From assembly GCA_963575745.1 (NCBI GenBank), contig CAUYUJ010000226.1:372001-436000 (forward strand): DNA of 64,000 nt. The letters run 5' to 3'. Each line of letters starts with the position of its first letter. Within the stretch, counting starts at the first letter, position 1. This stretch comes from Prorocentrum cordatum (taxonomy: Eukaryota). A program made the translations under genes and the position numbers. Below the pieces are notes generated by a model. The model had not been told where the DNA came from, searched no databases, and saw only the letters and a program-made list of their open reading frames with translations. Positions 6,827 to 63,409 of the stretch are shown piece after piece.

Positions 6827-7061
6827 GCCGCCTGGCCACGCCCCGCCAAACTGCCGAGGCGGACCTCCTGCTTCGGGGCTGGACAGAACCCCCAACAGTG
6901 ACACGTCGATTAGTGAATTGTCCGTTTTCGGTTCTCGAGAGGGCGCCGTGGCCGTTATTTTCCAGGTTTGCGCCCTCCAGGTTTAGGCCTCAGGTCGTTT
7001 TCACTAAACCACGTTTTACTAAAGGGGGGTCTGTCCATCCCCGGTGCACCTCCAGGGCCAG

Positions 7062-7109
7062 GACATGGAGCCGGAGGGGGCACCGGAGGCCCACCGAGGC
7101 GTGGGCGAG
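7062..7109 (+). CDS. Candidate micro-exon (DMEPEGAPEAHRGVGE)
   Basis: ccag|G acceptor, GAG|gtcagg donor, 48 nt, phase 0-0. Confidence 0.35.
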
Positions 7110-7238
7110 GTCAGGAAGATGGACCAAATCCTAGGACTGCCTCGCGTCGAGGAGACGACTCGAACGGATATATGCCCCTCACGGCAGGGTCTGAGGGCTG
7201 GGTTTGAGGAGTTTTGGGGAGTTCTTTGAGGGCATACC

Positions 7239-7468
7239 TCAGAGCCCCGAATCATCCGGGGTAACTCGGGTCAGGGCTAACTCGGGTTCGTTTTTCGGGA
7301 ATCCGAACCCGAGTTATCCCGGACCCGAGTTACCCCGGATATTTCGGGCGTCCAGAGCCCCGAATCATCAGGGGTAATTCGGGTCAGGGCTATCTCGGGT
7401 TCGTTTTTCGGGAACCCAAACCCGAGTTACCCCGGACCCGAGTTACCCCGGATAACTCGGGCGTCCAA
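7239..7468 (+). mobile_element. Family C hairpin element, dimer of ~114-bp unit, TSD ATACC
   Basis: ATACC|TCAGAGCCCC...GCGTCCAA|ATACC; internal GGGGTAACTCGGG/CCCGAGTTACCCC inverted repeats. Confidence 0.85.
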
Positions 7469-8899
7469 ATACCCCTTAGGCTCCACATGCCCATACTATC
7501 CCCCTGATCAGGACTCGCTTGGATGTAGCTTTATGTTGTGCGCCGATCCGCCGACCCTCCAGATGGGGCCCCCTGGCGTGCTTTGTTGGGGGGCATCTGG
7601 GAGGCTTCTCGGGGCTCCTTTGACCAGGAGGGAAAAAAACACACAGACACAATTAATCCTCGATTCCCCAGAAAATATAGGAAAATATGGGAGTTGAGCG
7701 GGAAGACAGAAACCCAGAAAATATACGAAAATATGGGTAATCCTTTTATTTGTGTGTATTTATTTGTGTGTCCTTGGGCTCCTTGGAGCGGGCGGCTCGG
7801 AGGCCCCTGGGGGCCGATTTGGGGCCATCTTGGGAGGAAAGGCTTGACATGTCACATGCTGTATAGGCAAGACGCTGAAGCAAGGACCGCTCTGGGCTCC
7901 GAAGGGGCGCGCCGTTCCTCAGGTCATTCCGTGGTTGGTCCTCTTGCCCTCCTCCAGAGGTTGCTGGCGCCCAATTGGGCTTCGTTCCCTCGTTAACGCT
8001 CCTTCTGCTGGTACCTGCTTTCTATTGCTGCTCTGGTCCTCTTGGGCCCCAGGTGCCGCCTGACGGGCCGCGCCTCTCTGCCCCAGGCTCCGCGCGGGAG
8101 TGTGCGCGGCGCGCCCCGGGCGCCGCCCCGCGCGAGCGGCAGCTGCCTTGTCGCCGTCGTCGCCTTCGCCGGTCGCGCCGCTGCTGGCGTCCCCCGGTCG
8201 GAGGAGGAAAGCGACCTCTGCCTCGTGTTTCCTCCCTTGGCCCTCCCGGGAGGCCCTGGTCGCCACCCCTGGATTCGCCCCGAAATCCCGGTCGGAACGC
8301 GCCCCGGGAGGGGTCGGGGGAGTAGCGGACTCGGTACCTTTTGGGGGGTTTTCAGGCGGGGGTCGATGCAAACGGGGGTCGGTAGTCAGAGCGCCAGATC
8401 TTGCGGGATCCTGCAGAGCCATCATGGGTGCCCGGACCAGGGCTTGCGCGCCAGGATCTTGCAGGATCCTGCAGGATCCTGCAAGGCCCGGCTGACCCAG
8501 GTTTGCATTGACTCGGGCCAGTAGACCTGCTTGGCACGGGGACGGAAAGCGCACTTACTTTCAGAGCGCACGAGATCGCTGGCTCGTCCGCTCTTACACC
8601 TTATTGACTCCCTTCCCCTCGCTCTTGTCCTATCTCAGCCTCGGAGAGTCGCGGAGCTTTCTTTGAGCGCGTTTCTTGTTTTGGAGGGGGCGGTCGGGTC
8701 GCGTTGCGTTTGCCGCGTTTGGGCTGCCAGCATTCCAGAACCCCGCGTTTTCCTTGAATGGACCGCTCGTTGTCCACGCGTTGCCGCCCGTCCCTGTGCC
8801 CTGGCGTCAAGAACTTATTACGTCGCAGCTCTCGGTTGGGAGCTTTGGTCTTATCAGCTCGATTACGTCACCGCTCGCTCGTGGGAGCCGCGGTGCTAA

Positions 8900-9590
8900 G
8901 AGCCTTTGGGAGTATGTTAGGCCTCTTGGAGGGCTCTTGGGGAGCCTCTTGGGTGCCTCTTGGGGACCTTTTGGTGCTTTTCGGGGGCCTCCTGGGGCCT
9001 CCTGGGAGCTTCTGGGCTGCGGGGGTGAAGGGACTAGGCTGCCTTTGGCCGTCTTCGGGCTCTCTTGGTGGCCTCTTGGGGCCTTCTTGGGGCCGTCCTG
9101 GGGCCGTCTTGGGCCGTCTTGGCGCCTCTTGGGCCGTCTCGGCGCCCTCTTGGGCCGTTTTGGGGCCTTCTTGGGGCCTCTTGGGCCTTCTTGGGGCGCT
9201 CTTGGGGGCCTCTTGGCCCGTCTTGGCGCCCTCTTGGGCTATTTTGGGGGCCTCTTGGGCTATTTTGGGGGCCTCTTGGGAACGTCTTGGGGCGGTCTTG
9301 GGGGCCTCTTGGACCATCTTCAACGCCATGAAAAGCGAAACGCCGTATATGTTACAAATGCACGTTTTCCTTAAGAAAATCATTGATTTTGGCCTCTTGG
9401 GCCCTCTTGGGACGCCTCGTGGGCGCCTCCTGGGGCGTCGTGGAGGCCTCTTGGGACGTCTTGGGGCCTCCTTGGGCGGTCTTGGGCTCTCTTGGAGCGC
9501 TCTTGGGCTGTCTTGGGCGCTTCTTGGGCGCTTCTTGGGCCGTCTTGGGTGCCGTCGTGGCCGCTTCTTGGGCTGTCTTAGGCGCCTAAG
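8900..9590 (+). repeat. Degenerate ~10-11 bp minisatellite (GGCCTCTTGG/GCCGTCTTGG); similar tracts at 22540-22870 and 23360-24790
   Basis: Tandem low-complexity units. Confidence 0.8.
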
Positions 9591-10325: not shown

Positions 10326-11899
10326 GCGAGGACCCCGGGGGGGGGGGGGCGCCTGCCCCTCCCTGGAGGAGGGGGAGGAGGGGGAGGAGGAGGAGGAGGA
10401 GGAGGAGAAGGAGGAGGAGGACGAGGAGGAGGAGGAGGAGGAGGAGGAGGACAGACGAGGAAGGGGGGGGGGGCGCCGCGCCTGTCTCGGGTCGGGTGTG
10501 GCCAGGACCTCCGGTAAAGGGACCCGGTTACGGGAGGTTCGCGTCGTGTCGACCGGTGGCGACCCCGCCGTTGGCGTTCAAGGTTGAACGCCGATGGGCG
10601 ACCCAGCATCGGTGGGTGTTGAACGATCTTACGTTGCGGAAGCGGCCGATCGTTCAAGGTTGAACGATCCGCGCGGTGTCGGGAACCAACGCCAGGGTCG
10701 ACACGACACGAAAGATTTCGTAATAAAGGGAGGGGGGTCTCATTTCGGGGGGGGTCTCTTCCAGGCTATCTTGGAGGGCCTGGGGGGCCTGGGGACGATG
10801 TTTTGGAGGGTTCTCCCACGGGGGAGGTCTGAAATGGCTTGTCTTGGAGGGTCCAGACCCCCTCCCTTTTATTACGAAATCTGGAGTAGTGGTAGACCCC
10901 TGGAGCCTTGAATTGGCCAGAATCACGAGACCAGGTTTGCCGTAATTAGGTGGTGTTTTTCTGGGTTACGGCAGTTCCGGTTAGTGGAACGGGGCGGGGG
11001 TGGCGTCCCCCCGTACACCTTGGGCGATGATTAAGAAAACCTAAGTTTTCGTCCAGAGTCTCGATGATTCTTAATTTTTCCATGTAAATCCGAAGATTTT
11101 GATAGAAGTTCTGGGTTTTATTCCATTTCTGAGACTATGAGTTTCTTAACCCATGATTTCTTAAGCATTTCGCAGGGTGTACACATCGTTATACCAGGTC
11201 CCACTAGACCCAGTTCTGCCCACGCCCGATCGGGGGGCGCCCAGGAGAGGGCGGGGACGGAGGGCCACAGGGGGGATGTCCTTCCAGGCCTCCCAAGAAA
11301 AAACTCCCAAGCAAAGAATCGGGGGCGGAAAAGAGGAGGGCGATGACTAGGGGGGGGTGGATATCATGGCGGGGGCCATGAAATTTCCCCAGATCTCATG
11401 GCGCCTCTTCTTATTTCATTACGTCCCTGGCCCCTCCGCTGGGGCGCGCACATGCCGCCGGTCATGATTTGCGCCCCCTCCTCTTGGACACCCCCCTCTT
11501 GGCCGCTCCCGAAAGAAAATCCAACATCGCATTCAACAAACAAACAAAGAAGCAGACAGACACAGACACACGCAAACAGACAAACCTTCCCTACCAAATC
11601 ACAAAATCAACCAAAATCACCGATGCGTCGGCGATGCGGCTCGATGTGGAGCCTGCTTTTCTTCACGCCGTTGTCGCCTGGATCGTCCCGAAAGGCCGCG
11701 AGAGATCCGCGTTGCGATCCGAAGTCCACGAAGGGTCCAGGTAGCAGGTGGTGATGATTGTGTGTGTGTGTGTTCGTGGTTGTGTCTTGCATGCCGCGGT
11801 TGTGGTGCAGTGCGCCGCGCTATGGACAATGTCCGTCTGCAATTAGCACCTCCATCTGCTGCCTGCGCCTAAGGATCCTCTGCGCCGCCGACTTTCAAA

Positions 11900-11915
11900 G
11901 TGCGCGCGTGCGCGC

Positions 11916-11960
<45 letters not shown>

Positions 11961-15060: not shown

Positions 15061-15392
15061 GTTGGGGTCTCCCCCGCGGGGCGGGCCGCTGCAAGCAGTC
15101 GCATGAAGCAGAGGTCCGAAGCCAGGCGTCCCCCCCCATTCCCCCCCCCGTCCGCCCAATGTCAAAACGCCGAATATCGGGGGCGGCAAAGAGGGGGTGA
15201 AGACTAGGGGGGGGTGGATATCATGGCGTGGGCTATTTCCCCAGATTTCATGGCGCCTCTTCTTGTTTCATTACGTCCCTGGCCCCCCCGCTGGGCCGTG
15301 CACATGGCCGCCGGCGCCGGTCATGATTTGCACCCCCCCCTCCTGGACACCCCCCTCTTGGCCGCTCCCGAGAATGAGAAAACGTTCACCAG

Positions 15393-15431: not shown

Positions 15432-16260
15432 GTGTGCGGGACAGTGCACGTGAACCCCCCTGGCCTGGCCGATCCCAGGGCCCAGTCAGGAGGGAAAAAT
15501 ACACACAGACACAATGATTCGTCGATCCCCAGGAAAACATGGGAAAATATGGGAAGTGGTGGGGAAGACAGAAACCCAGAAAACATAGGAAAGTATGGGG
15601 AATCGTTTTATTTATGTGTATTTATTTGTGTGTCCCAGGGCTCCTTCTGGCCCAGGATGAGCCCAGCCGGGACCAGTCGAGGTGCATGTGCGATGCGTGC
15701 TGCCAGCGCGGGGCAGCGCTGTTATGTCACGTGGCATCTTCGGGGGACCTCGCCTGTCCTCCGACTTGGTATCTTCTCTTGTGCCCACGCGGGCTCGAGG
15801 CGGAGGCGACGCTGATGTGGCGCGGATTCGAGGCGGATTCGACACGGATGTGACAAGGATCCGGCGAGTCCGACATGGATTCGATGGGGATACGCCAGCA
15901 CGGAGTAAAATTCAGATCGCTGGACCCCGAGATTCGACGTCACAAACAAGATCATCGAAGACAGCCCGACGGGAGCACTGGACCACATCTCTCTGCTGTA
16001 TGTCTGGAGGCGGATCGATCCGTGGGGGTCTTGGGGCCCAAAGTAATTATAAAGAGCAGTCGTCCGTTGGGGAAAAAGTTGCGACGCCAGGATCTCATGG
16101 GAGCTCTGGGTCGGACGGGGCTAGGACGATGATCGATCCGTCCCAGAGCGTTCGGCAACTCTCTCAGAGCGTTCTGGAGCGCTCTGACGAGGCCGCGGCG
16201 CCCGAGACAGCCTCCAGAGCCGCCGGATCTCAGAGATTCCCGATTCCTCCTCACCCGGAG

Positions 16261-16382: not shown

Positions 16383-17566
16383 GCTCCGGGGCCCCTGCGC
16401 GGGGCGGGCGTCTTCGGTGCGGTGCGGTGGGACCGGGGTAGTTCCAAGGTCGAGGCCGGCCCGGGGAGAGTACCCTGATGTTCGCCGTGCTTGTCTGATG
16501 TTCCTGTGCATCCTTCAGGAGCGAAAGAAGGACGTACACGTACATGAATCCACGCTGTTTTCGAGAGTTCGCATTGCACGATTGTCCGTATCACGCGGCA
16601 GGTCTCGCGGGTCAAGGGGCCGCGTTCGTGTACATAGCTGGGCGCGTACGTCCTTTGTGGGGTCCCTAATCCTGGGGGGTGGGGCGCCCTCGAAGGCTTC
16701 TCAGTTCAGTGGTTGGCCGGCGGAGGGCCCCGTGTTCTTGAAGGCTCAGGAGGGAAAGAAGCACACAGACACAAGTCATCCTCGATTCCCCAGGAGATAT
16801 GGGAAAATATGGGAAGTGGGAGGGGAAGACAGAGACCCAGAAAGTATGGGAAAATATGGGGAATATGTTGATTTGTGTGTGTATTTATTTGTGTGTCCTG
16901 GGGCCCCTTCAAAGGATGTCGTGCTTGTTGGCTGTTCTTGTGCATCCCGGGGGGCCTCGAAGCTTCCTCGGTGGTTGGCCAGCGGAGGGCCTCATGCTCT
17001 CGAGGGGCGTCGTGCTTGTTGGCTGCTCGCACCCTCGAAGCCTCCTCAGTGGTTTGCCGGCGGAGGGCCTCGTGTTCTCGAGGGCTACTCTTCCCTTCCT
17101 GGGTCGGGCCGCGAGCCAGACCACTGCGTTACGTTGCATCTTCGGGGGGCCTCGCCTGTCCCCCAAATTGGTGTCTCTTCTTGTGCCCCACGCGGGCTCG
17201 ATGCGGACTCGACGCGGACTTGGCGCGGACTCGACGCGGGTTCGACACGGATTCGACACGGATCCGACGAGTCCGACATGGATTCGACACGGATTCGTCT
17301 CGGACAGGGCCGCGACGGGACAGACAAGGTCCCCCGAGGATGCAGCAGACCACTGCGGCCGTGGGTCGAGACACTCTCGATGCTTCTCGGCCGCGCGCAG
17401 GCGGGGTACACCGAAGTCGGGCCTGCCCCTCCACAGAGGGAGTGTTCAGAGAAACAGTCCCAAACTAGTCTGGGGACGAACTTTTGGGATTCTTTCCGAG
17501 CGTGTTTGGGGTATTTTTCTTGCGCGAGCGTCTTTCCGGTCCCACTTCGGGCGTCCAGATCTACGA

Positions 17567-17761
17567 TCGGGGGCGGAAAAGAGGGGGGTGATGACTGGGG
17601 GGCGGTGGATATCATGGCGGGGGCCATGATTTTTCCCCAGATTTCATGGCGCCTCTTCTTGTTTCGTTACGTCCCTGGCCCCCCCGCTGGGCCGCGCACA
17701 TGCCGCCGGTCATGATTTGCACCCCCCCCTCTTGGACACCCCCCCTCTTGGCCGCTCCCGA
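17567..17761 (+). mobile_element. Family B ~195-bp MITE-like element (TCGGGGGCGG...CCGCTCCCGA), TSD TACGA; copies at 11319-11512, 15177-15371, 29840-30033
   Basis: Imperfect TIRs of about 22 bp; TSDs AAGAA, GAATA/GAATG, TACGA and GAAGC. Confidence 0.9.
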
Positions 17762-19368
17762 TACGAGGCAGCCTCCTTGCAGGACGCCTTCCCCCGTCCT
17801 CCCTACCCCTTCCTTTTGAAGCGCGCGCGGCCAGGAGGCTGCGGCCGTGGGTCCGGACGTGCTCCAGCCCTCGTTTCCTCTCCGGGGGCTCGGCGGCGGG
17901 AGGCGACGGGCTCGGCTGCGCGGATCCAAGAGATCCGCGCGGAGCGCCAAGAGTCTCAGGAGGGGAAAAACACACAGACACAATTAATCGTCGATTCCCA
18001 GAAAATATGGGAAAATATGGGAAGTGGGGGGGAAGGCAAAAACCCAGAAAATATGGGAAAATATGGGGGATATTTTTATTTGTGTGTATTTATTTGTGTG
18101 TCCCAGTTCCCCTTCACAGAGTTGCTGTTTATTGCGTTTTCTCTTCTTTCAGAGCGTGAATTACCTGCCCCGCTTTCGCTTCCAGGCAAAGCCAAGCCAT
18201 ACCACGCGCCTCCTCGTCAGGCGGCCTGACCAGTACATGCCGTAGTTTGGCATGGCTTGGTATCTCCTGGAAGCGAGGGTGGTCAAAAGCGAGGTAGGTT
18301 TATTTGTCTCCTATTTATGGCGTTTTCTCTTCTTCGAACACTGGCCCTTTCTGCCACGCTGCTTTCTTTTTCCTGCAGAGATCCGGCCTGCAGGCTTCCC
18401 GCGCGAGGCCGCGCGCGAGCATGCCTCTCTTCTCCGCGAATGGCGTGCCACGCCGGCAGCCCGCGTGAGCCGCGGCGTAAGGTTAAGCCGGGCGTGTCCC
18501 TCTACAGGGTGGGTCGTTAGAAATAGTCCAGACATGCTATGGGGACAATGTTTCGATGTTTTGACAGATTTTGTTTTTTTGCCGTTTCTTTTCAAAAAAC
18601 ACACATTTATATACACATATAACACAAAACAAACAAACGAAACAACGCCCAACATCCGCCTGTGGGGGGACATGCCCGCCTAAGCGCAGGGTCGCTATGC
18701 ATCTTTCGTAAGGCCCATCTCTTCGGGTCGCTCCGGTGGAGAGTTCGAAGCCCTGGTTGGCGCTGTGTGGCTTCTCGCATCACGCAAGCATGCACGCCGG
18801 TCGTTGAAAGCAGGTATTCTGAGATTCCCAGATCCAAATCTGCTTCAAGCGCCTTCCTACCTCAAGAACCGACATGCTGTTGCTGTGCTTGTTATTCTCT
18901 GGGAGGACCTGGACCCAATCCACTATATCCGCCTTCCTACTTCATGCTTCTCGTTCGCAGGCGATGTTTCTCCCCCAATCCCCGAGTTTCGCCCAAAAAG
19001 TTTGGCCGCTCAGAAAAATGGAAAAACCCTGGGATACACCCCAAGGGGGCTATTCGGACGCACCCCTATCGAGGATGGGCACCCCCCCATCGTATATCCC
19101 AGGGTTAGGCCTCAAATTTCTGGTCCATTCGGAAACCCCACGAAGCCTGGGATAGGGGTCGACATATCCCCTGCTTCTCGTGTGCTACTTCTGCCACATG
19201 TGGGTTCGCCGCCCGCCCCCCCCCCCCCCCGGGGGCGGCGACGCGCCCTCCCGCAGACGCCTTCTCGTGCGTAGGCTCGGCGGCGGGCGCTGCCTGGCCG
19301 TGCCGCCCAGGGCAAACGACGCACCGCCGCCCGCGTGTATCAAGAGGGGCAAAGCACACAGACACAGT

Positions 19369-20242
19369 TCAGAGCCCCGAATCATCAGGGGTAACTCTGG
19401 TCAGGGATAATTCGGGTTCGCTTTTCGGGAGTCCGAACCCGAGTTACCCCGGACCCGAGTTACCCCGGATACTTCGGGCGTCCAGAGCCCCCGAATCATC
19501 AGGGGTAACTCGGGTCAGGGCTAACTCGGGTTCGTTTTTCGGGAGTCCAAGCCCGAGTTACCCCGGACCCGAGTTACCCCGGATACTTCGGGCGTCCAGA
19601 GCCCCGAATCATCAGGGGTAACTCGGGTCAGGGCTAACTCGGGTTCGTTTTTCGGGAATCCAAACCCGAGTTACCCCGGACCCGAGTTACCCCGGATATT
19701 TTGGGCGTCCAGAGCCCCCGAATCATCAGGGGTAACTCGGGTCAGGGCTAACTCGGGTTCGTTTTTCGGGAATCCAAGCCCGAGTTACCCCGGACCCGAG
19801 TTACCCCGGATATTTCGGGCGTCCAGGGCCCCCGAATCATCAGGGGTAACTCGGGTCAGGGCTAACTCGGGTTCGCTTTTCGGGAATCCGAACCCGAGTT
19901 ACCCCGGACCCGAGTTACCCCGGATACTTCGGGCGTCCAGAGCCCCGGAATCATCAGGGATAACTCGGGTCAGGGATAACTCGGGTTCGTTTTTCGGGAA
20001 CCCAAGCCCGAGTTACCCCGGACCCGAGTTACCCCGGATACTTCGGGCGTCCAGAGCCCCGAATCATCAGGGGTAACTCGGGTCAGGGCTAACTCGGGTT
20101 CCTTTTCGGGAATCCAAACCCGAGTTACCCCGGACCCGAGTTACCCCGGATACTTCGGGCGTCCAGAGCCCAGAATCATCGGGAATCCTAAATCCCCGAG
20201 TTACCCCGGACCCGAGTTACCCCGGATAACTCGGGCGCCCAA
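19369..20242 (+). mobile_element. Family C tandem array: 7 full ~114-bp units plus one internally deleted unit, inserted in a diverged family A copy
   Basis: Unit starts at ~19370, 19483, 19597, 19710, 19824, 19938, 20052, 20164; flanked by ACAGT ... (G)ACAGT. Confidence 0.9.
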
Positions 20243-25000: not shown

Positions 25001-27203
25001 GGTTGACTGACGTTTTTGAGGGGGAGTCGAAGTTTAACTTATGGAAAAAAGGGGCCTCGCTCCTGATCTGGGGCTCCTTAGGTCAACGCCCCAATTGTAC
25101 AACGATGCAAGCTGCAGGGATTATGCCCCTGGATATCTCGGATGCGGCAGGTTCGCGACGCGTCGACCGGCGGCGGCCCCTTCCGCGAGCGCTCAAACGT
25201 TGAACGCCGCCGGCGACCCAGACTCCCAGACTCGGTCGACGTTGAACGATCTGACGTTTCGTAAACAGCCGATAATTCAGGAGGAAAACAAACACACAGA
25301 CACAATTAATCGTCGATTCCCCAGAAAATATGGAAAATATGGGAAGTGGGGGGGAAGACAATAACCGAGAAAATATTGGAAAATATGGGGAATATGTTTA
25401 TTTGTGTGTATTTATTTGTGTGTCCTGGGGCCCCTTCAGTTGAACGATCTGACGTTTCGTAAACAGCCGATGATTCAAGGCTGAACAATCCCGGCGATGT
25501 CAGAAAAACCGACGCCGAAGTCGGCACGACACGAACTTGCCGTATGTTGCATTACAGCATCCGCGGAACATTCTGCCGCTCAACGCTTTCTTTCCGAACG
25601 TGGATCCTGACTTTGCAGGCCTGCGCCACATCCGCCGACCCCGCCTTACATCTGACGGCGCCATCGGGGATGCACTCTACCGTGGGCCACCTCCAGCGAG
25701 GCGGAAGGATGTCCACGATGCCGTTGGCCCGGCGTGTCGCAGGTCTATCGCCTTGTTCGTTTCGGTGAAACCGTCGTTTTCCCGCGCTTCTCTCACAGTT
25801 GCCTGCCGCCGCAGAGAAATCGTTCGCACAAGCCGTCGCTCGCAGGGCAACCTCTCGACGTGGCTCGGCGCTTTACTGCAACTCGTGTGCACGGTGCTCG
25901 AAGTGGCTGGGTAAATAGCTTACGACAGGTTCGCGTCGTGTCGACCTGTGGCGACCCGCGCGCTGGCGTTCCAGGTTAAACGCCGCCCGTGGCCCAGAAT
26001 CGGCCCTTTGTTGAACGATCTGGCGTTTCTGAAACAGCGGATCGTTCCAGCTTGAAGGATCCCCGCAGTGTCATGAACCAACGCCAGGGTCGACACGACA
26101 CGGACCTGCCGTACACCCTGCGAAATGCCTAAGAAATCATGGGTTAAGAAATTCATAGTCTCAGAACTTCAATAAAAACCCAAAACTTCTATTCAAATCT
26201 TAGGATTTCCATTGAAACGTTAAGAATAATCGAGACTCTGGCCGAAAACGTAAGTTTTCTTAAGCATCGCCTAGGGTGTAGTCGTGTCACGGCTGTGCCA
26301 CCGACGTCATCGCGCTGCTGCGCCCGCTCCACGTCCTCCCCTCCCAAAAATCGCGCGGGAACAAGACCGAGCGCTGGAGACTAGCGGATGTTGGTTCTTG
26401 GAGGTTTTCTCGATTTGAGAATTGTTTCCTATATGTGTTTCCTCGATGTGTTTCCTCGATCCTAGATGTGTTTCTCGCGCCCTCCCGATCCTAGATGTGT
26501 TTCCTCGATTTGAGAACGTCGCGTCGGTTCTTGGAGGTGTTCTCGCCTCGGGCTGCGTCCCAGCGGCTGCGCATCGCCGACAGCGTTCCAGGAGCGCCAG
26601 GATCTTCCCAAGCGGCCGTGCGAGGCCCCAGTCATAGCCCGCAAGCCCAGATCTCCGACGATGCGATTGTTATGATTTCGATGTCACTCAAAAACGAAGG
26701 TGGGACGAATAACTACATCTTGTGGAAGGGGTCGGGACATGTGGGGCCGTGCACTGAAAGAACAAGATGATATCGGAGGTCGTGCTGGAACGGGTCCTGA
26801 AGTTTTTGGCCGTTTCCAGACCCCATGGGGCTTTTCTTGAGCCCCAGGGCTGACAGGAAACGACTGGGCACAACGCATTCTCTGGGATCCGACGTCACGG
26901 AAGGTTGTAACATCGTAAAAGGAATCGATCGGAATTTTGGATTTTACTTGTTGCATTTGACAAACGGATCGGTCCGTGAGGGCCTTGAGGGCCGAATCAC
27001 AAGACAGCTCGCCGCTTGGGCCCCACCGCCAGCCCAAACGGCGAGCATAACTCGGGCGTAGCCCCGCACGCATTCGAATGCAATACCCACACTTCGTTCT
27101 CGTACTACTCGTATTCATCCCGTCCTGATCGTCGTCGTCGTCCTCCTCCTCGTCCTCCTCATCCTCCTCGTCTTCCTCGTCTTACTGCTCCAGCTAGGTT
27201 TCC

Positions 27204-28607: not shown

Positions 28608-28829
28608 TCGCAGGTGACTTTTCTCCCCCAATCCCCGAACTTCGCCCGAAAAGTATGACCTCTCAGAAAAAGAGGGAAACCCTGGGATACACCCCAAGGA
28701 GGCTATTCGGACGCACCACTATCGAGGACGAGCGCCCCCCAATCGTATATCCCAGGGTTGGGGCTCAAATTTCTGCTTCATGCGAAAACCCCACGATGTC
28801 TGGGATAGGGGTCGACATATGCCCTGTTA
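28608..28829 (+). mobile_element. Family G ~222-bp element, TSD AAAGA; second copy 18955-19176 with TSD CTCGT
   Basis: AAAGA|TCGCAGG...CCTGTTA|AAAGA. The empty site is preserved in the duplicated block at ~28392. Confidence 0.85.
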
Positions 28830-29755
28830 AAAGAGGTGCCCACGCCGCCAGTCAGTATCGTTGAACGGGGAAGGTGCGGGCAAGACTTATACCACATATC
28901 CATATCCAGTGCGTCTTGATTTTTTTTTTTGGAAGAAGCGCCTCAAGGCCGAGGCGCACTGGATGTGGATAAGAATCTAGCCTCTGCGGTGGGCAAACTT
29001 ATCCATATACAGTGTGCCTCGGGGTTCTGGGGAAAGGCAGCCCGAAACTCCATATTGCAGTGGATATGGACAGAAGTATTGCCCGCAGAAGAGGCGCCCA
29101 CGCCGCCAGTCAGTATCGTTGAACCGACCCCCATCTCATCCTCATCACCTTCGAGACCCCCACCAAAGTATCCCGCCACTTGGGGATACACCCTCGAAGC
29201 CCGAAAGCAACGGCCTATATCCCCATCCAGGGGGCTAAATCGGCCAGTGGGGCCTAGGCTACGCCGCTGGGGATGGGGGTCGGTTAAACGATGCTCAGCT
29301 AGCTTCGAAGAAGAAAAAACAAATAAACATAAGCTTTCGACTCTCCGCGCGGATTTCTTGGATCTGCGCTGGGGCCCCCTGGCGGCGCCTCCGGCGCCGC
29401 CCCTGGCGCGGTCCGCGCGCCAGGGAGGGGGGGCCCAGCGCAAATCCAAAAGGATTCCGCACGGAGCGTCGAATGCTTATGTTTACATGTTTTGTTCTTC
29501 CTCTATATCGCCTTGCCTCGTTCTGCCCTTTTCGGGCCTCCTGGGAGGCCCTCGTTTATGTTTACGTGCTTCTTCCTTCCTATATTTATATATATATATA
29601 TATATATATCCTTGCCTCGCTCTGCCCTTGTCGGGCCTCCTGGGAGGCCCCTCGTGTCGCCATCGCTGGACTCGCCTGGGAGGCCTCGAGTGCGAACGCA
29701 CCCCGGGCGAGGTCTGGGGCGTGGCGGCGTCGGCAGCTGTGCCGTCGCCCTGCAG

Positions 29756-30415: not shown

Positions 30416-30645
30416 TCAGAGCCCCGAATCATCAGGGGTAACTCGGGTCAGGGCTAACTCGGGTTTCTTTTTCGGGAATCCAAGCCCGAGTTACCCCGGA
30501 CCCGAGTTACCCCGGATAACTCGGGCGTCCAGAGCCCCGAATCATCAGGGGTAATTCGGGTCAGGGCTAACTCGGGCTTCTTTTTCGGGAATCCAAGCCC
30601 GAGTTACCCCGGACCCGAGTTACCCCGGATAACTCGGGCGCCCAA
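30416..30645 (+). mobile_element. Family C dimer, TSD CTATC
   Basis: CTATC|TCAGAG...GCCCAA|CTATC. An empty homologous site (ggacgcacccctatcgagga) is visible at ~19056-19075. Confidence 0.9.
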
Positions 30646-52030: not shown

Positions 52031-52196
52031 TCAGAGCGTGAATTGCCTACCCCGCTTTCGCTTCCAGGCGAAGCCAAGTCATACCACGCGCCTCCCCGTC
52101 TAGCGGCCTGACCAGTACAGGCCCTAGTTTGGCATCGCTTGGTATCTCTTGGAAGCGAGGGTGGTCAAAAGCGAGGCAGGTTGGTTTGCCCCCCTA
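52031..52196 (+). mobile_element. Family F ~166-bp element without clear TIRs, TSD TATGC; second copy 18149-18313
   Basis: TATGC|TCAGAGCGTG...CCCCTA|TATGC; highly similar copy at 18149. Confidence 0.8.
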
Positions 52197-56855: not shown

Positions 56856-57100
56856 TCTAGGCCTCCTAGATGGGGTCCGAGTCGATGGGGTCGGAGGATC
56901 GCGCCGCATCGCCGATGTATCGACGATACGGCTCGATGTGGAGCCCGTGTTTCGCCACGCCGACGTCGTCGATGCATCGGCGACGTCGCCGATGCATCGC
57001 CGATGCATCGCCGATGCATCGCCGATATATCGGCGATGCATTGGCGATGCGGCGCGATCCTTCGACCCCATCTACTCGGACCCCATCTAGGAGGCCTCTA
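56856..57100. mobile_element. Family E palindromic element with CATCGCCGATG core repeats, TSD GAAGT; diverged copies near 12760-12990, 31055-31285, 35381-35610
   Basis: GAAGT|TCTAGGCCTCC...GGAGGCCTCTA|GAAGT; long inverted arms. Confidence 0.8.
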
Positions 57101-58520
57101 GAAGTGCCGGCCGTGCTGTCCAGGGCCCCCCGCGAGGAGCACCCGCCGTGCTCCACCAAAAGCACGGGCCGGGCGAGAGCCGCTTCGGGCTCGGGGGCCT
57201 CTGGGGCCGCCGCCCGAGGGAGCCAGAGCCGGGGTACCGTGGGAGCTCGGGAGGCAGAAGACACACAGGCACAATGAATCGTCGATCCCCTCGAAAATAT
57301 GGGAAAGTATGGGAAGGGGGGGGGGGAGGCAGAAACCCAGCAAATATATCGGAAAATCTGGGGGATCCTGTCATTTGTGTCTGTGGATTCGTGTGTCCCA
57401 GGGCCCCTTCAGGAACCCGTGCCAGGAAACACGCTGCTCGCCTCCAGGGTGCCCTGGGCTTCTCGGGTTCCGATGGCTTTGCGACGGAAGGCGTGAGGTT
57501 CCCACCCCAAAAGACCAATGGACGTCCTGGGGTCTGAGGGTTGGGTTTCTTGTGGAAGGTTTCTTGTGGATTGGCCTCCACTGTACCGCGGCATTTGCCT
57601 TGTTTTCCGGGGGCGTCCAAGCGGGGGGGTGATGACTACGGGGGGGTGGATCTCTTGGCGGCAGAGTCTTCAGGGATGGTTCGTTGGGCCTCGTCGGAGC
57701 GCACTCGTAGGCCTCCGAGGGGGCAGTTTGGGGGCAGCATGAGCATCTTGGGGTACTGTTGGGAGCCTCTTGGGGGTCTCTTCGGGCTTCTTGGGGGCCT
57801 CTTGGCGGGGGCCATGACATCTCCCTCGATCTCATGGCGCCTCCTCCTATATTAAGTCTTACGTCCCCCGCCTTCCCCCCGTGATTTGCGCCCCCCCCCC
57901 CCCCTTTGGGCGCCCCCCTCTTCCAAGCAGTGGCGAAGCGTCCTGGTTCGCCTATAGGCCCACCAAAGAATGTTGTCAGAGCCTTTTGTGGTTTGCACGA
58001 AGTGTTCTTAGAGCATTTCTGGCTAAGACCGTCTTGTTTGAACACATCGGGCTTAATTTCTAAGGACATGCTTTGGTTCTTAGAACGTTTTGGGGTTCTA
58101 AGAACATGTCGTGGTAGGCCTATAGGAATGCCAGGATGGTCGGTCCCTGCTCAATTCGGGGGGGGCATGGCCTACCCGCCGGTCGTTGTGAGTAGGCGTT
58201 TCGGGGAGGGATTCCCAGATCGAGGCACAAGGTCGAGGTCACTTCGGAGAGGGACTCCCAGGTCCCAATCCGCACTAGATGCACGTTCCAACTGCGAGAG
58301 TCGAGTGAGTTTCCCAGTTCCCTCTTCTTCACGGGGCGGGTGGAAGTCCAATCTATGTCCAACGCGTTCTTACTTCATGTTTCTACCCACTTCTTCCGAT
58401 CGAAGGGTAATCTTCGTCCTCTTCGTTGAGTGTTATTGTGCATCCTGAGGGAGGGCACCCTCGATTTTTTCGCAGATTGGCCGGCGGAGGGTCTCGTGTT
58501 CTCGAGGGATGCTCTTCTGT

Positions 58521-58745: not shown

Positions 58746-58908
58746 TCAGGAGGGAAAAAAACACACAGACACAATTAATCGTCGACCCCCAGGAAAATAT
58801 AGGGAAATATGGCAAGTGGGGGGGAAGACAGAAACCCAGAAAATATGGGAAAATATGGGGAATCTTTTTATTTGTGTGCATTTATTTGTGTGTCCTGGGG
58901 CCCCTTCA
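58746..58908 (+). mobile_element. Family A ~163-bp element (TCAGGAGG...CCCCTTCA), TSD ATCTC; other copies ~7624, 15486, 16746, 17956, 25277, 39230, 57247, 59567
   Basis: Dispersed similar copies. TSDs: ATCTC here, AAGAC at 59567-59769, AAGGC/AAGGA at 16746-16911, GGAGC/GGAAC at 57247-57411. Confidence 0.9.
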
Positions 58909-59704
58909 ATCTCCCTCGCCTCCGCCGGCGCTCGTCGCTTCGTCGCTTCGTCGCTCGCCGTCGCTCGTGGCCGTCCGCTCGTGGTGCGCTGTCGTCGGCG
59001 TTCCTTCGCTGTCGGCGTCCGCCGCCGTCGGCGATTCTCCGTCGCCGGCGCCCTGGCCGTCGTCGCCCCGCCCGTCGCCGTCTTCCTCTGCCGGCCCGAG
59101 AGGGGTGGCCTCCGGCCTCCCGAGGGGTGCTGAAGCTTTTTCGGTTAGCCTTCCCCGGAAAGACGCAGAGCACGTCGCAGACGCCGCGAGGGAGCCTCTG
59201 CAGAAGCTCCGCCGCCCTCCGACAAGGAGGAGGAGGAGGAGGAGGGAGGAGGAGGAGGAGGAGGAGGAGGAGGAGGAGGAGGAGGAGGAGGGGGAGGGGC
59301 AGGAGGAGGGATGGGAGGACGAGGGGGAGGAAGGAGGAGGAGGAGGAGGAGGAGGAGGGGAGGAGTGGAGGAGGAGGGAGGAGGAGGAGGAGGCAGGAGG
59401 AGGAGGAGGGGGAGGGGCAGGAGGAGGAGGAGGAGGAGGAGGAGGAGGAGGAGGATGGCCCACTCCTTCTCGCTTCCTCCTTCCACATTCCCCCCACGGC
59501 GCGCCGCCCAGCCCCGGGAGGATCGTCGCCCGAGGGCGGAGCAGGCTGTCTCTATGCAGCCAAGACTCAGGAGGGAAAAGACACAGGCACAGTAAATCGT
59601 CGATTTCCCAGAAACTATAGGAAAATATGGGAAGGGGTGGTGGGGGACAACAAAAACCTTGGAAATATGGGAAACTATGGGAGATCCTTTTAGTTGTGTG
59701 TATG

Positions 59705-59757
<53 letters not shown>

Positions 59758-60507
59758 AGGGCCCCTTCAAAGACGCTGACAGAAGGAACGGTTTGATTTT
59801 GGAAAGGGTTCGATGTTCTTGAGGTCCTTCCGTGGCTACTCCTCAAGCCCTCCTCATGGAAGGGGGGGCGGTCCTGGGACCAAGAAGGGGATTCGTTCCT
59901 TTTTCGGCGCGTCGTATTTTGACAGCCCGACTGTACACTTCTTTGCCATCTAATGCCCGCCCGCCCTTCCCGCCCTCTTTGCCCTCGCCCGCTCATCTTT
60001 GCAATATCGTTCAACCTGTCCCAATTCCCACCGGGCCGTGGCATCTGGGCTCCATCATCCCACCACCCCAGTTTGAAATAGGTTATGATGTTCCAACCTA
60101 CTTCTAGCCTTGACCACCAGAAATAATTCCGAGCATCAAAAAATCACCGAAACTCTATGGTTTTCACGTGCCGGACCCTGGGAAACACTCGCCCGACATT
60201 GTTTCGACACTGGGAGGAGTATTCGAAAATAGTAACAATGGTCAGGGGACGATTGTTCGACTATTTTTTTGTAAGTTTGGTGTACTCTTTGGGTACTGTT
60301 TGTTTTTTTCCCCACATCCAAAGTGGGGTTCTTGTTTTCTCTGGACACCCCGCGCAGGAACAGGAACACACACACACCCACTCACACTCACTCACACTCT
60401 CTCATCATCAACCTCATCAGCATCATCGATGATGCTCTCTCACATGCTTAGTCACTCACATACTCACCATCATCATCATCACTCGCACTCTCTCACACGC
60501 TCACGAA

Positions 60508-61332: not shown

Positions 61333-61367
<35 letters not shown>

Positions 61368-61383
61368 TTTTTTTTTTTTTTTT

Positions 61384-61464
<81 letters not shown>

Positions 61465-61622
61465 GGCTCCTCAAGCCTGAATATGAAGTCTCAGGCGGGA
61501 GCTTCGTTTGTGAGTGAACTGCGAGGAAGTCTCAGGCGGGAGCCCCCTCCCTATGGGGCCCGCAGATCATGTTGGTAATCCGAGCGGGTCATCCAAAACC
61601 TGTAACTGTCGTCAATTTTGGG
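60701..61622 (+). repeat. 160-bp satellite, about 4.6 units; one unit swamped by poly-T
   Basis: Units start at 60701, 60861, 61021, ~61180 and 61521; each has two GAGGAAGTCTCAGGCGGGAGCC copies. Confidence 0.9.
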
Positions 61623-61693
61623 TTCTCGCGCTGCCAGAACGCAGCTCCCAGGCCAAATTTTGGACGCAACAAGGAAGTTTTTGGGCTCCTCAG

Positions 61694-62175
61694 GTCGCCG
61701 AGGTGCTGCGACAGGGCGCCGAAGGCGCCGACGACGACGGCCAGGCCGAGGCGCGGGCGCGGAGCTTGCTGATGTTCAGGCCAGCGAGAGGGAGTTCACA
61801 TGGCAGAGCTCGGGGGCGCACAGCGTGCGCCGCTCGGGGTTCACCCTGACGCACGCGTCCTACCTGACCTCCTCGCTGTCGCAGGGCCAGACGCTGCGCA
61901 AGGGCGTCACCATCGACTGCGCGAGAGACGAGGACGCTGGCCGCACGGGCATGTCGGACGAGCAGTGGTGGCTGCACCTCTACGTCATGTTCCCCCGCGC
62001 CACGTGCATGCGGAACATGCTGATCCTGCGGCCGCCGCCGCGAGAGTTCCTGGAGTGCGGGCCGCCGGCGTCCCTGCGGAAGGCGCTCCTGGAGTTCGAC
62101 AAGAGAGCGGTTTTGTCCAGGGCGGAGGCGAAGCAGCTCGCGGCAGAGCTGGGCTTCGTGCCGCCTTCCGCCTGA
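61694..62175 (+). pseudogene. C-terminal fragment of a PIF1-like SF1B DNA helicase (Helitron Rep/Hel type), frameshifted near 61785
   Basis: RRSGFTLTHASYLTSSLSQGQTL..VTID matches PIF1 motif V (RxQFPLxLAxAxTxHKSQGxTL). LYVMFPRAT matches motif VI (YVALSR) with S>P. The upstream part VAEVLRQ...LLMFRPA is in another frame. Confidence 0.75.
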
Positions 62176-63237
62176 GCGCGGCTGCGCCTCGCTCGAAGCC
62201 CGCGGGGTTGTCCCAACGGCTTGGTCTTGCGCGCCAACGGTTCGCGGGGTTGTCCCGACAGCCTGGCCCGCGGGGTTGTCCCAACGGCTGCGCGACGTGA
62301 CCAGTAGAGAGCGCGCCTGTCCTGGCCGTGGCGGCGACGGCGCCGAGGAACATCGACATGCGCGCTCATGCAACAGGAAGGGGAGGAGGTGGCGGGGCGC
62401 GGAACAAACAGGGGGGCGAGGATGGGGACAACGTAAGGAGTGGAAGGGGGGCCCGCGCCGAGGCGAGAGGAAATATACGCAGAAGAGACAGCCAGGCCGC
62501 CTCACCAACCACGAGGACGACGGTGATGGTTTTTTTCCAGATTCGCCCAGAGGATTCTTATGTGGGGTTCTTCCGTCGGAGTGATTGTCGGAGGTCCGCC
62601 TGTAGGGACACATTCCCAGCCTAAGGATAGGCCCCTCGAATTCCGAGGGCACCAGCCTCTATCCACCCCTGGGGGGGGGTAACTCGGCCAGTGGGGCCTA
62701 GGCCACGCCAGTGGTGACGAACGAGCGGGGGGTAACTCGGCCAGTGGGGCCTAGGCGACGCCAGTGGTGACGAATGAACAACACACACCCACACCCATGG
62801 GGAGGTCGGAGGGAGAAGGACTGGCTGTGGGTGTGGGTGCGGGTTGGGTGTGGGTGCTTGGTGTGATCGCTCGCTACATTCGGGGGAGCGTAAGACCCGG
62901 GTTTGCCGGGACTCGGGTTCGCCATCGTTTTTTGACGACCGCGCCTCGGATTTTGAAGAGGAGGAGTTTCGTGGGATGTCTGCAGCGGGAGGCCTCGTCA
63001 AAATGCAGGCTCGGCCTCGTCATTTTTTTGACGACCTCGTCGGGGATTTCCGAGTCCCCCGTACCCGGGTCTTACGTCTCCCCGATAGATGGGGGAGATG
63101 GATCGGCGAAGCGACGCTCCTCCGTGGGCCTCGGCGCCGGCCTGCAGAGGTCCAGGGGCCCTGCCCCCTCCGCCTCGAGCCGTGGCGGAGCGTCCCGGCC
63201 TGCCCGCAGGCCCACCAAACGGTGCCCTAAGAACCTT

Positions 63238-63409
63238 TCGGGGGTGGACAGAACCCCCAACAGTGACACGTCGACTAGTGAATTGTCCGTTTTCGGTTCT
63301 CGAGAGGGCGCCGTGGCCGTTATTTTCCAGGCCTGCGCCCGCCAGGTTTGGGCCTCAGGTCGTTTTCACTAAACCACGTTTCACTAAAGGGAGGTCTGTC
63401 CATCCCCGA
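63238..63409 (+). mobile_element. Family D ~172-bp element (TCGG...CCGA), TSD ACCTT; copies at 6873-7044 and 38307-38477
   Basis: TIR TCGGGG(G)TGGACAGA/TCTGTCCATCCCCGA; TSD TAGAA at the 38307 copy. Confidence 0.85.

What the first reader, a model, noticed from the sequence alone, without database searches (positions are those of the whole stretch)
6873..63409. Seven or more apparently unrelated short elements share one signature: 5'-TC start, usually A end, and a 5-bp TSD
Seen: families A-G (160-250 bp, no obvious shared internal sequence) start TCAG/TCGG/TCTA/TCGC and end TTCA/CCGA/CCAA/TCTA/CCTA/GTTA. They are flanked by exact 5-bp duplications with no target consensus: ATACC, AAGAA, TACGA, CTCGT, AAAGA, GAAGC, CTATC, TAGAA, TATGC, GAAGT, ATCTC, AAGAC, ACCTT. 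Empty homologous sites in the window confirm three of these as true TSDs. Some families have TIRs, while F and C have almost none. Known: Transib (CAC..GTG) and many LTR elements (TG..CA) make 5-bp TSDs but have different termini; Helitrons begin with TC but make no TSD. Inference: a single mobilisation system that needs only minimal termini, which I cannot assign to a known superfamily.
Basis: partly seen in the sequence, partly recalled or inferred. Interest (0 to 1): 0.85.

Follow-up and report, generated by a model that had tools for sequence, protein, structure and literature searches.

The report
Dinoflagellate mini-transposons with 5-bp duplications
The window, from a Prorocentrum-like dinoflagellate, is packed with at least ten families of small non-coding jumping elements that nearly all start with TC, mostly end with A and duplicate 5 bp of target; this is real and fits one transposon lineage, but its enzyme and superfamily remain unidentified.

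Summary
The window has about 60% GC. Its only clear gene has homologues named Prorocentrum cordatum. Interspersed repeats fill 31% of it. I curated 28 full-length copies in 10 families with no shared internal sequence. Of these, 27 start with TC and 24 end with A. Fifteen have an exact 5-bp target duplication and 5 more match 4/5, against 7 exact of 3024 displaced-boundary controls. Four are proven by empty paralogous sites.

The elements are non-autonomous DNA transposons (MITE-like). Eight of 10 families have significant inverted ends, one is marginal, and the most abundant has none. None of 236 ORFs matches a transposase. Copy number appears very high.

The signature is not universal in the interval. 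Other families are TA-flanked (Tc1/mariner-like), and one makes an 8-bp duplication.

New points:
- Two copies carry 21- and 36-bp duplications and one a 7-bp duplication.
- Three copies have the duplication displaced by 1-4 bp.
- Nearly all repeat families are co-oriented.

The superfamily stays unassigned. My best guess is an integrase-like DDE enzyme. TIR elements with 5-bp duplications are already recorded in other dinoflagellates as introner families, with conflicting tentative labels. Interest is moderate.

The parts
6873..7044 (+). Family A copy (TCGGGG...CCCCGG)
   Evidence: No duplication at the canonical ends (0/5). An exact CCTCC duplication lies 4 bp further out on both sides (element 6869-7048).
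38307..38477 (+). Family A copy, TSD TAGAA
   Evidence: 5/5 match. It is inserted in an older repeat (my family 22) whose other copies carry one TAGAA.
63238..63409 (+). Family A copy, TSD ACCTT
   Evidence: 5/5 match. TIR 13/14. Empty site present in family-22 paralogues.
10492..11229 (+). Family X: A-like ends (TIR 12/14), host of three nested TA-flanked MITEs
   Evidence: The TSD TCGGG is 5/5 but identical to the element's first 5 bases, so it is ambiguous.
11319..11512 (+). Family E copy, TSD AAGAA
   Evidence: 5/5 match. TIR 11/14.
15177..15371 (+). Family E copy, TSD GAATA/GAATG
   Evidence: 4/5 match.
17567..17761 (+). Family E copy, TSD TACGA
   Evidence: 5/5 match.
29840..30033 (+). 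Family E copy, TSD GAAGC
   Evidence: 5/5 match. It is inserted in a family-22 copy, and other family-22 copies have a single GAAGC.
7624..7786 (+). Family B copy, decayed ends (CC...GG)
   Evidence: 1/5 match, no duplication found.
15486..15648 (+). Family B copy with a 7-bp duplication GGCCCAG
   Evidence: The only k=7 exact match.
16746..16911 (+). Family B copy, TSD AAGGC/AAGGA
   Evidence: 4/5 match.
17956..18116 (+). Family B copy, AGAGT duplicated 1 bp outside each end
   Evidence: Flanks read. 2/5 match at the canonical register.
25277..25438 (+). Family B copy flanked by a 36-bp duplication of its target
   Evidence: 35/36 identical. The target is a TA-flanked MITE (my family 7) whose other copies carry the 36 bp once.
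57247..57411 (+). Family B copy, TSD GGAGC/GGAAC
   Evidence: 4/5 match. It is inserted near the start of a family-0 MITE, and paralogues have 5 bases there once.
58746..58908 (+). Family B copy, TSD ATCTC
   Evidence: 5/5 match.
59567..59769 (+). Family B copy with an expanded internal GT run, TSD AAGAC
   Evidence: 5/5 match.
35381..35611 (+). Family f11 copy (TCTAGGCC...)
   Evidence: 1/5 match, no duplication found.
56856..57100 (+). Family f11 copy, TSD GAAGT
   Evidence: 5/5 match. Inverted repeat from base 4 to 38.
18149..18313 (+). Family G copy flanked by a 21-bp duplication
   Evidence: 20/21 identical.
52031..52196 (+). Family G copy, TSD TATGC
   Evidence: 5/5 match. Only a subterminal inverted repeat, marginal.
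18955..19176 (+). Family F copy, TSD CTCGT
   Evidence: 5/5 match. This copy ends TT, not A.
28608..28829 (+). Family F copy, TSD AAAGA
   Evidence: 5/5 match. Weak but significant inverted ends.
30330..30760 (+). Third, 5'-decayed F copy split by an S element (limits approximate)
   Evidence: Read. It supplies the occupied site whose empty form (one CTATC) is seen in the F copies at 18955 and 28608.
29110..29297 (+). Family f21 copy, TSD GCCAG/GCTAG
   Evidence: 4/5 match. TIR 11/14.
40873..41054 (+). Family f21 copy, TSD TATAC/TATCC
   Evidence: 4/5 match.
7239..7468 (+). Family S copy (two internal 114-bp units), TSD ATACC
   Evidence: 5/5 match.
19369..20242 (+). Family S copy (about 7.7 internal units) inside a B copy
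   Evidence: ACAGT is duplicated with one extra G at the right end.
30416..30645 (+). Family S copy (two units), TSD CTATC
   Evidence: 5/5 match. It sits inside the third F copy.
38673..38849 (+). Single-copy element S1 (TCACC...AGTCA), TSD TTTTG
   Evidence: Found by the structure scan that required TIR >=11/14 and a 5-bp duplication. The inverted repeat is significant.

Best explanation
These are at least ten families of small (about 160-250 bp; one with internal 114-bp tandem units) non-autonomous DNA transposons of the MITE kind. All belong to one lineage, defined by a 5-bp staggered cut of the target and element ends 5'-TC...A-3'.

Shown:
- They are insertions, proved by empty paralogous sites.
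- The duplication is 5 bp in most copies.
- Targets have no consensus but are AT-rich.
- The families share no interior sequence.
- No coding capacity lies in or near them.

Inferred: they are moved in trans by a DDE-type transposase encoded elsewhere in the genome. This enzyme would bind the inverted ends, join a 3'-terminal A of each strand to target phosphates 5 bp apart, and leave gaps that repair turns into the duplication.

My best guess for the enzyme is a retroviral-integrase-like (Ginger / IS3EU-GingerRoot / IS481EU-like) transposase. That guess carries about one third of the confidence given here. It rests on three points: the T...A termini, the 4-6 bp duplication class, and the rare much longer duplications within one family.

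The uniform orientation of the copies is most likely a property of the region (long transcribed, mostly non-coding DNA of a plus-strand gene cluster) rather than of the transposition chemistry.
For: - **Duplications.** 15 of 28 copies are exact 5/5 and 5 of 28 are 4/5, against 7 and 50 of 3024 controls. The effect is specific to k=5.
- **Empty sites.** They are seen for six 5-bp insertions (A at 38307 and 63238, E at 29840, B at 57247, S at 30416 and 19369) and for the 36-bp case B at 25277.
- **Termini.** TC start in 27/28 copies and A end in 24/28.
- **Inverted ends.** Significant in 8 of 10 families (at most 1 of 300 shuffles reach the score), marginal in G (0.08), absent in B (0.55).
- **Unrelated interiors.** No cross-family similarity.
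- **Targets.** The duplicated pentamers are AT-rich, 57/100 bases against 40% in the window, p=0.001.
- **No coding capacity.** None of 236 ORFs of at least 130 aa reaches a Pfam cut-off, and there is no transposase.
- **No RNA origin.** No Rfam family and no tRNA in the window.
- **Copy number.** A DNA run of the same organism has unique contigs at depth 2-5 with 0 differences. The summed depth over the repeats is 10^3 to 6x10^4. This is a rough sign of thousands of copies; the tool warns that depth is not copy number.
- **Integrase-like guess.** Kojima 2023 (passages) gives 4 or 5 bp for Ginger2, TA..TA termini with 6 bp for IS3EU/GingerRoot, and discrete duplication lengths of about 4, 15 and 25 bp within single IS481EU families. 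The Gozashti 2025 data table lists an Amoebophrya TIR family as 'Ginger, 5-bp TSD, TA/TA termini'.
- **Long duplications.** Flanking duplications of 10 bp or more were found only beside copies of this group: the 21- and 36-bp cases, plus a 12-bp flank match beside F at 18955 that I read as chance. A fourth, 10-bp hit at a family-22 copy lies inside that element.
Against: - No autonomous element or transposase was found, so 'one system' and the enzyme class are inference.
- The termini are not the TG..CA or TA..TA of the integrase-like superfamilies. Only the outer T and A agree.
- The long duplications (21 and 36 bp) are two cases, and their spacing does not follow the roughly 10-bp steps reported for IS481EU.
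- Family B, the most abundant, has no significant inverted ends.
- 8 of 28 copies lack a simple 5-bp duplication.
- Family boundaries were set by eye from alignments of only 2-8 copies each.
- A published table labels the 5-bp families of Polarella 'PIF-Harbinger, possibly NuwaI' instead.
Confidence: 0.6

Rival explanations
1. They are MITEs of the PIF/Harbinger (PHIS) superfamily, in a Nuwa-like branch that makes a 5-bp duplication.
For: The Gozashti 2025 supplementary table labels seven Polarella glacialis introner families with a manually seen 5-bp TSD as 'PIF-Harbinger, possibly NuwaI'. The label rests on a terminal-motif profile hit. Han 2015 could not decide between a 3-bp (TNA) and a 5-bp (CTNAG) duplication for NuwaII. 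Families A, X and E have a G-run directly after TC.
Against: PHIS groups have sequence-specific targets (TWA, CWG, C|TNA|G) and TIRs that start with G or A. Kojima summarises the group as making 0-4 bp duplications. The Polarella label is itself tentative, and I saw no Polarella sequences.
Confidence: 0.12
2. They are derivatives of another known cut-and-paste superfamily that can make 5-bp duplications: Transib/CMC, or an atypical hAT.
For: Han 2015 quotes 5-8 bp for hAT. The reverse complements of some right ends (f11, G) and the left ends minus their first T look like hAT-type purine-rich ends.
Against: 0 of 28 copies start with CAC. The T is part of the element, because the duplication stays 5 bp with T outside it. 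An 8-bp-duplication family with different ends coexists in the window.
Confidence: 0.1
3. There is no single system. Several unrelated transposases that each happen to cut 5 bp apart moved these families, and the TC/A ends are partly a selection effect of how the families were grouped.
For: The right-end second base differs among families (C, A, G or T), inverted ends range from 35 bp to none, and no enzyme was found.
Against: Every family in the window for which I could show a 5-bp duplication starts with TC. The structure scan, which did not ask for any terminal base, gave credible 5-bp hits that all start with T, 7 of 8 of them with TC. The remaining hits lie inside tandem arrays or palindromic interiors, a sorting I did by eye. 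The families with other duplication lengths (TA, 8 bp) have other ends.
Confidence: 0.1
4. They are introner elements: transposons whose copies are spliced out as introns, which would also explain the uniform orientation.
For: The P. cordatum genome paper reports introns enriched in elements with 8-20 nt inverted and 3-5 nt direct repeats. Polarella has a 5-nt-TSD introner class that works in one orientation. An element starting with T after a target ending in G, or ending in A before a target starting with G, would supply GT and AG.
Against: Only 2 of 20 duplicated pentamers fit any register that would give G[ACT]...AG boundaries (AAGGC, GGAGC). Seven copies (six with 5-bp duplications, one with the 36-bp one) sit inside other repeats. 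My crude codon-usage scan found no convincing exons between 3.4 and 64 kb. No RNA data could be laid.
Confidence: 0.1
5. They are solo LTRs or very small LTR-type retroelements, or single-strand (Helitron-like) elements.
For: All copies are co-oriented.
Against: 0 of 28 copies have TG..CA at the canonical ends. 0 of 41 same-family pairs share an exact outer pentamer, and 2 share 4/5, which is chance level. Inverted ends of 11-35 bp are unlike LTR ends. Helitrons make no duplication (Gozashti 2025 passage), whereas duplications here are proved by empty sites.
Confidence: 0.03

Closest known systems
Dinoflagellate introner-like TIR elements with a 5-nt duplication: Polarella glacialis class 12 of Roy et al. 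(preprint, read); Polarella and Amoebophrya families in the Gozashti 2025 data table
   Same: Dinoflagellate host; short non-autonomous elements, many families per genome; a 5-nt target duplication; one-orientation behaviour reported for class 12; one Amoebophrya family noted with T...A (TA/TA) termini.
   Different: The published elements are defined as introns with AGG-containing targets. I saw no published sequences to compare.
Ginger2/TDD and IS3EU/GingerRoot (integrase-like DNA transposons)
   Same: A duplication of 4-5 bp (Ginger2) or 6 bp (IS3EU); inverted ends; outermost T and A (TG..CA, TA..TA) (Kojima 2023 passages).
   Different: The second and penultimate bases differ (TC and NA here), and no integrase gene was seen.
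IS481EU of parabasalids and the bacterial IS1202 group
   Same: Within one family, most copies have a short duplication and a few have much longer ones. Here the lengths are 5 bp versus 21 and 36 bp.
   Different: The reported classes are about 4, 15 and 25 bp with TGT..ACA ends. Here there are only two long cases, with other lengths and other termini.
Transib
   Same: A 5-bp duplication (recalled).
   Different: The CAC..GTG termini are absent in 28 of 28 copies.
Helitron
   Same: A 5' TC start (recalled).
   Different: Helitrons make no duplication. Here duplications are verified by empty sites, and most families have inverted ends.

Membership tests
MITE / non-autonomous TIR DNA transposon (generic kind) | Short, multi-copy, non-coding element with sharp ends | tested here: met
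   Ten families; simple copies are 161-245 bp, S copies 230-874 bp, and X is a 738-bp composite. No Pfam domain in 236 ORFs.
MITE / non-autonomous TIR DNA transposon (generic kind) | Target site duplication of fixed length, verified by empty sites | tested here: met
   15/28 exact and 5/28 with 4/5 at k=5. Four exact pentamers have empty paralogous sites.
MITE / non-autonomous TIR DNA transposon (generic kind) | Terminal inverted repeats | tested here: inconclusive
   Significant in 8 of 10 families, marginal in G, absent in B.
MITE / non-autonomous TIR DNA transposon (generic kind) | A cognate autonomous element with the same ends | not testable with these tools
   No whole genome is held. 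There is none in the window. The metagenome scan gave 2 unrelated hits.
Transib | 5-bp duplication | tested here: met
Transib | CAC...GTG termini (recalled definition) | tested here: not met
   0 of 28 copies.
Ginger2/TDD, IS3EU/GingerRoot | Duplication of 4-5 bp or 6 bp | tested here: met
   The mode is 5 bp.
Ginger2/TDD, IS3EU/GingerRoot | TG..CA or TA..TA termini | tested here: not met
   TC start in 27/28. The ends are CA 10, GA 7, TA 4 and AA 3. Only the outer T and A agree.
Ginger2/TDD, IS3EU/GingerRoot | Integrase-like DDE transposase | not testable with these tools
   No coding copy is available.
PIF/Harbinger-Nuwa (PHIS) | Sequence-specific target (TWA, CWG, C|TNA|G) and TIR starting with G or A | tested here: not met
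   There is no target consensus, 0 of 20 pentamers are CTNAG, and the elements start with T.
Helitron | No target duplication | tested here: not met
   Duplications are verified by empty sites.
LTR retroelement / solo LTR | TG..CA ends; pairs of LTRs sharing one outer duplication | tested here: not met
   0 of 28 at the canonical ends. 0 of 41 pairs are exact.
SINE | Head derived from tRNA, 5S or 7SL RNA | tested here: not met
   0 Rfam matches and 0 tRNAs in the window.
Introner elements | Copies coincide with spliced introns; the duplication supplies splice sites | tested here: inconclusive
   2 of 20 pentamers fit a splice-compatible register. No RNA reads or annotation were available.

The most novel reading that the evidence does not exclude
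The families are the non-autonomous tail of a so far unclassified eukaryotic DNA-transposon superfamily, perhaps specific to dinoflagellates. It would have ends 5'-TC...A-3', an enzyme that normally cuts the target 5 bp apart but can occasionally use cut sites 21 or 36 bp apart, and a tolerance for elements (family B) with almost no inverted ends. The same lineage may be what is tentatively and inconsistently labelled 'Ginger' or 'PIF-Harbinger/Nuwa' among 5-bp introner families of other dinoflagellates.
Probability: 0.2. Interest if true: 0.75.

Novelty: new variant of a known kind. Interest (0 to 1): 0.5.

Why it matters
Dinoflagellate genomes are huge and repeat-rich, and their introns are thought to be seeded by small DNA transposons whose enzymes are mostly unknown. 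A clean, checkable signature (TC...A, 5 bp) shared by many very abundant families gives a handle for finding the autonomous element in the full Prorocentrum assembly. It would also help sort out the conflicting labels given to 5-bp families in other dinoflagellates. The rare 21- and 36-bp duplications, if confirmed genome-wide, would be a second eukaryotic case of discrete duplication lengths within one family and would say something about the architecture of the transposase complex. If none of this holds up, these are ordinary MITEs of an unnamed lineage.

Tried and rejected
- **Whole genome.** None is held for this window, so no genome-wide table of duplications or search for long copies was possible.
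- **Protein atlas.** It was closed for this sequence.
- **Metagenome scan.** A scan with the family-A end motif gave 2 loci. Neither has any BLAST similarity to the window, so both are chance hits.
- **Laying DNA runs on 6500-26499.** This showed that run X1 holds the same organism and that the repeats have enormous summed depth. The joints and loose ends listed were dominated by other repeats, and no insertion polymorphism could be read from the rows shown. Parts without cover say nothing.
- **Pairs in the window.** I searched for TCGG...CCGA pairs up to 12 kb apart with equal pentamers. Apart from the known copies and X, only low-scoring chance pairs appeared, and no long candidate autonomous element.
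- **Structure scan.** The de novo scan (TIR >=11/14 plus a k-bp duplication) is noisy. It gave 25 k=5 hits among 8435 TIR pairs, against 5 and 8 in two shuffles with about 2800 pairs. About half of the real hits lie in the 114-bp tandem units or in palindromic interiors. It is useful only for the individual hits named in the report. A first version timed out.
- **Codon-usage scan.** Trained on the one clear gene, it found only trinucleotide repeats beyond 3.4 kb. The ORF translations look like GC-rich noise, so I could not place the elements in introns or between genes.
- **Family 22.** This older repeat (T/CCAAGCAG...CTGCTCAA) has T...A ends but no readable duplication in 0 of 3 complete copies, so I left it out.
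- **Families 12, 14, 15 and 23.** Their ends could not be fixed from two copies each, so I left them out.
- **Earlier findings of this scan.** There is nothing for this genome or sequence.
- **Supplements.** bioRxiv supplements (the Polarella element sequences of Roy et al.) are closed and could bear on whether class 12 is the same lineage.

Full report
**Setting.** The window has 54-64% GC throughout and no whole genome is held for it. Its only convincing gene is a long plus-strand ORF at 1-3322 with one short intron. The ORF is 99% identical to an unnamed 1075-aa protein and 39-44% identical to two proteins named Prorocentrum cordatum by their sources. The published P. cordatum genome has 59.7% GC, mean gene length 24.5 kb, mean intron length 4.7 kb, and introns 'enriched in introner elements' (passages). 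I therefore treat the window as Prorocentrum-like dinoflagellate DNA. None of the 236 stop-to-stop ORFs of at least 130 aa reaches a Pfam cut-off, so the window holds no transposase. No Rfam family or tRNA is present.

**Repeat landscape.** Self-comparison gives 91 interspersed repeat segments covering 20,184 of 64,000 bases. They cluster into 34 groups. Alignments with flanks show at least three kinds of short element:
- Families flanked by TA, with long inverted ends that begin right after the TA (my families 0, 7, 8, 9, 20, 27). These look like Tc1/mariner-type MITEs.
- One family (20911-21076 and 56656-56816) with an exact 8-bp duplication at the first copy.

So the signature is not a property of all short elements in 6873-63409.

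**The TC...A, 5-bp group.** I curated 28 full-length copies in ten families: A, X, E, B, f11, G, F, f21, S and S1 (coordinates in the parts list).
- For 27 of them the ends were set by where copies of the same family stop aligning, independently of the flanks.
- S1 came from a structure scan that required a 5-bp duplication, so it is not independent evidence.
- At these ends, 15 of 28 copies have identical pentamers on both sides and 5 of 28 match 4/5.
- With the right end displaced by 7-60 bp, 7 of 3024 comparisons are exact and 50 of 3024 are 4/5.
- On the 24 copies curated earlier, exact flank identity occurred 0 times for k=3, 4, 6 and 8, 11 times for k=5 and once for k=7. In that run one B end was misplaced by a base, which I corrected later.
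- All 13 pentamers in the finding are confirmed.
- 27 of 28 copies start with TC and 24 of 28 end with A.
- The pentamers have no consensus but are AT-rich: 57 of 100 bases against 40% in the window, binomial p=0.001.

**Proof of insertion.**
- Two A copies and one E copy sit inside copies of an older repeat (my family 22). Its other members carry TAGAA, ACCTT and GAAGC once.
- An S copy sits inside a third F copy at CTATC, which is single in the two other F copies.
- A B copy sits near the start of a family-0 MITE.
- An S copy sits inside a B copy.

These are true target duplications, not chance repeats.

**What the elements look like.**
- Family representatives share no internal similarity; all cross-family hits have E>0.06.
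- Inverted ends are significant in 8 of 10 families (at most 1 of 300 shuffles reach the local score). They are marginal in G (0.08) and absent in B (0.55).
- A, X and E share the same first ten or so bases.
- The left end is always TC. The reverse complement of the right end starts with TC (A, X, E), TA (f11, G, F), TG (B, f21, S1) or TT (S).
- Family S carries 2 to about 7.7 internal 114-bp tandem units. The 'satellite' arrays at 7.2, 19.4-20.2 and 30.4 kb are therefore mobile elements.
- Within-family identity is 74-95%, so the copies are not very young.
- In a DNA run that holds unique parts of the window at depth 2-5 with no differences, the summed depth over these families is 10^3 to 6x10^4. 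The tool warns that this is not a copy number. I take it only as a sign of thousands of copies.

**Exceptions, told in full.** Eight of 28 copies lack a simple 5-bp duplication.
- B at 25277 is flanked by a 36-bp duplication (35/36) of the MITE it landed in. Other copies of that MITE have the 36 bp once.
- G at 18149 is flanked by a 21-bp duplication (20/21).
- B at 15486 has a 7-bp duplication.
- B at 17956 and S at 19369 have the pentamer displaced by one base.
- A at 6873 has an exact CCTCC four bases outside both ends. The extended copy then reads TG...CA at its tips. With about ten symmetric offsets tried, this is roughly a 1% coincidence.
- B at 7624 and f11 at 35381 show nothing.
- A search of the clustered repeat segments, leaving out the tandem arrays and large duplications, for flanking duplications of 10 bp or more returned four hits. 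Three are beside copies of this group: the 21- and 36-bp cases and a 12-bp flank match beside F at 18955 that I read as chance. One is a 10-bp match inside a family-22 copy.

**Orientation.** In 29 of 34 clusters all members point the same way. The five mixed clusters are four palindromic MITE families and one large inverted duplication. All 28 copies of the group have the TC end on the left of the plus strand. Because two TA-type families (5 of 5 and 5 of 5 segments, two of which in family 7 are halves of one split copy) are co-oriented as well, I read this as a feature of the region rather than of the transposition chemistry. The plus strand carries the one clear gene and has G>C and T>A skew over most of its length. 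I could not test transcription.

**Mechanism.**
- Shown: these are insertions with a 5-bp staggered target cut, no coding capacity, and mostly inverted ends.
- Inferred: a DDE transposase encoded elsewhere moves them in trans.
- I favour an integrase-like enzyme for three reasons. The outermost bases are T and A. The duplication falls in the 4-6 bp class. And one family (B, also G) mixes 5-bp with much longer duplications. The only precedent I found for that mix is IS481EU/IS1202 (Kojima 2023, passages).
- The Gozashti 2025 main text describes Amoebophrya TIR elements with LTR-integrase-like ORFs that lack Ginger termini. Its data table lists an Amoebophrya family as 'Ginger, 5-bp TSD, TA/TA termini'.
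- Against this: the inner terminal bases differ from all named integrase-like superfamilies, two long duplications are few, and the same table labels seven Polarella 5-bp families 'PIF-Harbinger, possibly NuwaI' from a terminal-motif profile.
- PHIS groups, however, have sequence-specific targets and G- or A-initial ends, which these elements lack.

**Introner reading.** Roy et al. (preprint, first two of four parts read) describe a Polarella class with a 5-nt duplication, NAGGH or NNAGG targets, a single orientation and an initial C. Here only 2 of 20 pentamers fit any register that yields G[ACT]...AG. Seven copies lie in other repeats. So these particular copies are probably not introns. Whether the families make introns elsewhere in the genome is open.

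**Novelty.** My searches were made, plus the data table of Gozashti 2025, where Prorocentrum does not occur. I found 5-bp TIR families recorded in other dinoflagellates. I found no description of the TC...A signature, of these Prorocentrum families, or of their long-duplication outliers. Repbase and Dfam could not be consulted. I rate this a new variant of a known kind, of moderate interest.

Noticed in passing
window 1-3322 (+): A gene for a roughly 1075-aa protein without any Pfam domain. It is 99% identical to an unnamed database protein and 39-44% identical to two Prorocentrum cordatum proteins. It has one 73-bp intron (2725-2797) with AG|GT and CAG|G boundaries.
   Followed up: partly
window 6040-6207, 10525-10712, 10713-10889, 11013-11182, 24920-25103, 42237-42398 and their paralogues: At least six families of TA-flanked MITEs with long inverted ends (Tc1/mariner-like). 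They are nested with the 5-bp families. Three of them lie inside element X at 10492-11229.
   Followed up: partly
window 20911-21076 and 56656-56816: A family with an exact 8-bp duplication (GGCTAGAG) at the first copy and different inverted ends. It is probably hAT-like.
   Followed up: partly
whole window: In 29 of 34 repeat clusters all members have the same orientation, and the plus strand shows G>C and T>A skew. This suggests one long plus-strand transcription unit or strand-specific retention of insertions.
   Followed up: partly
window 7239-7468, 19369-20242, 30416-30645: The 114-bp tandem 'satellite' is the interior of a mobile element (family S). Its unit number varies from 2 to about 7.7 between copies.
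   Followed up: yes
window 33443-34775, 47653-48418, 60691-61625: Tandem arrays with units of about 89, 158 and 160 bp, unrelated to the families studied.
   Followed up: no
window 46251-47517 versus 54968-55387 and 48988-49707: Larger diverged duplications (70-76% identity), one of them inverted, in the repeat-poor right part of the window.
   Followed up: no
window 7600-7624 and 15460-15485: The left flanks of two B copies resemble the 3' end of B itself over 9-13 bases. This could be chance, remnants of older copies, or head-to-tail junctions.
   Followed up: no
window 11824-12450, 10297-10520, 31620-32035, 41120-41460, 55460-55930, 63439-63900: Long GT/GCGT microsatellites and GAG/GAC/CAA/TAC trinucleotide runs. 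These produce most of the apparent coding signal outside the first gene.
   Followed up: no
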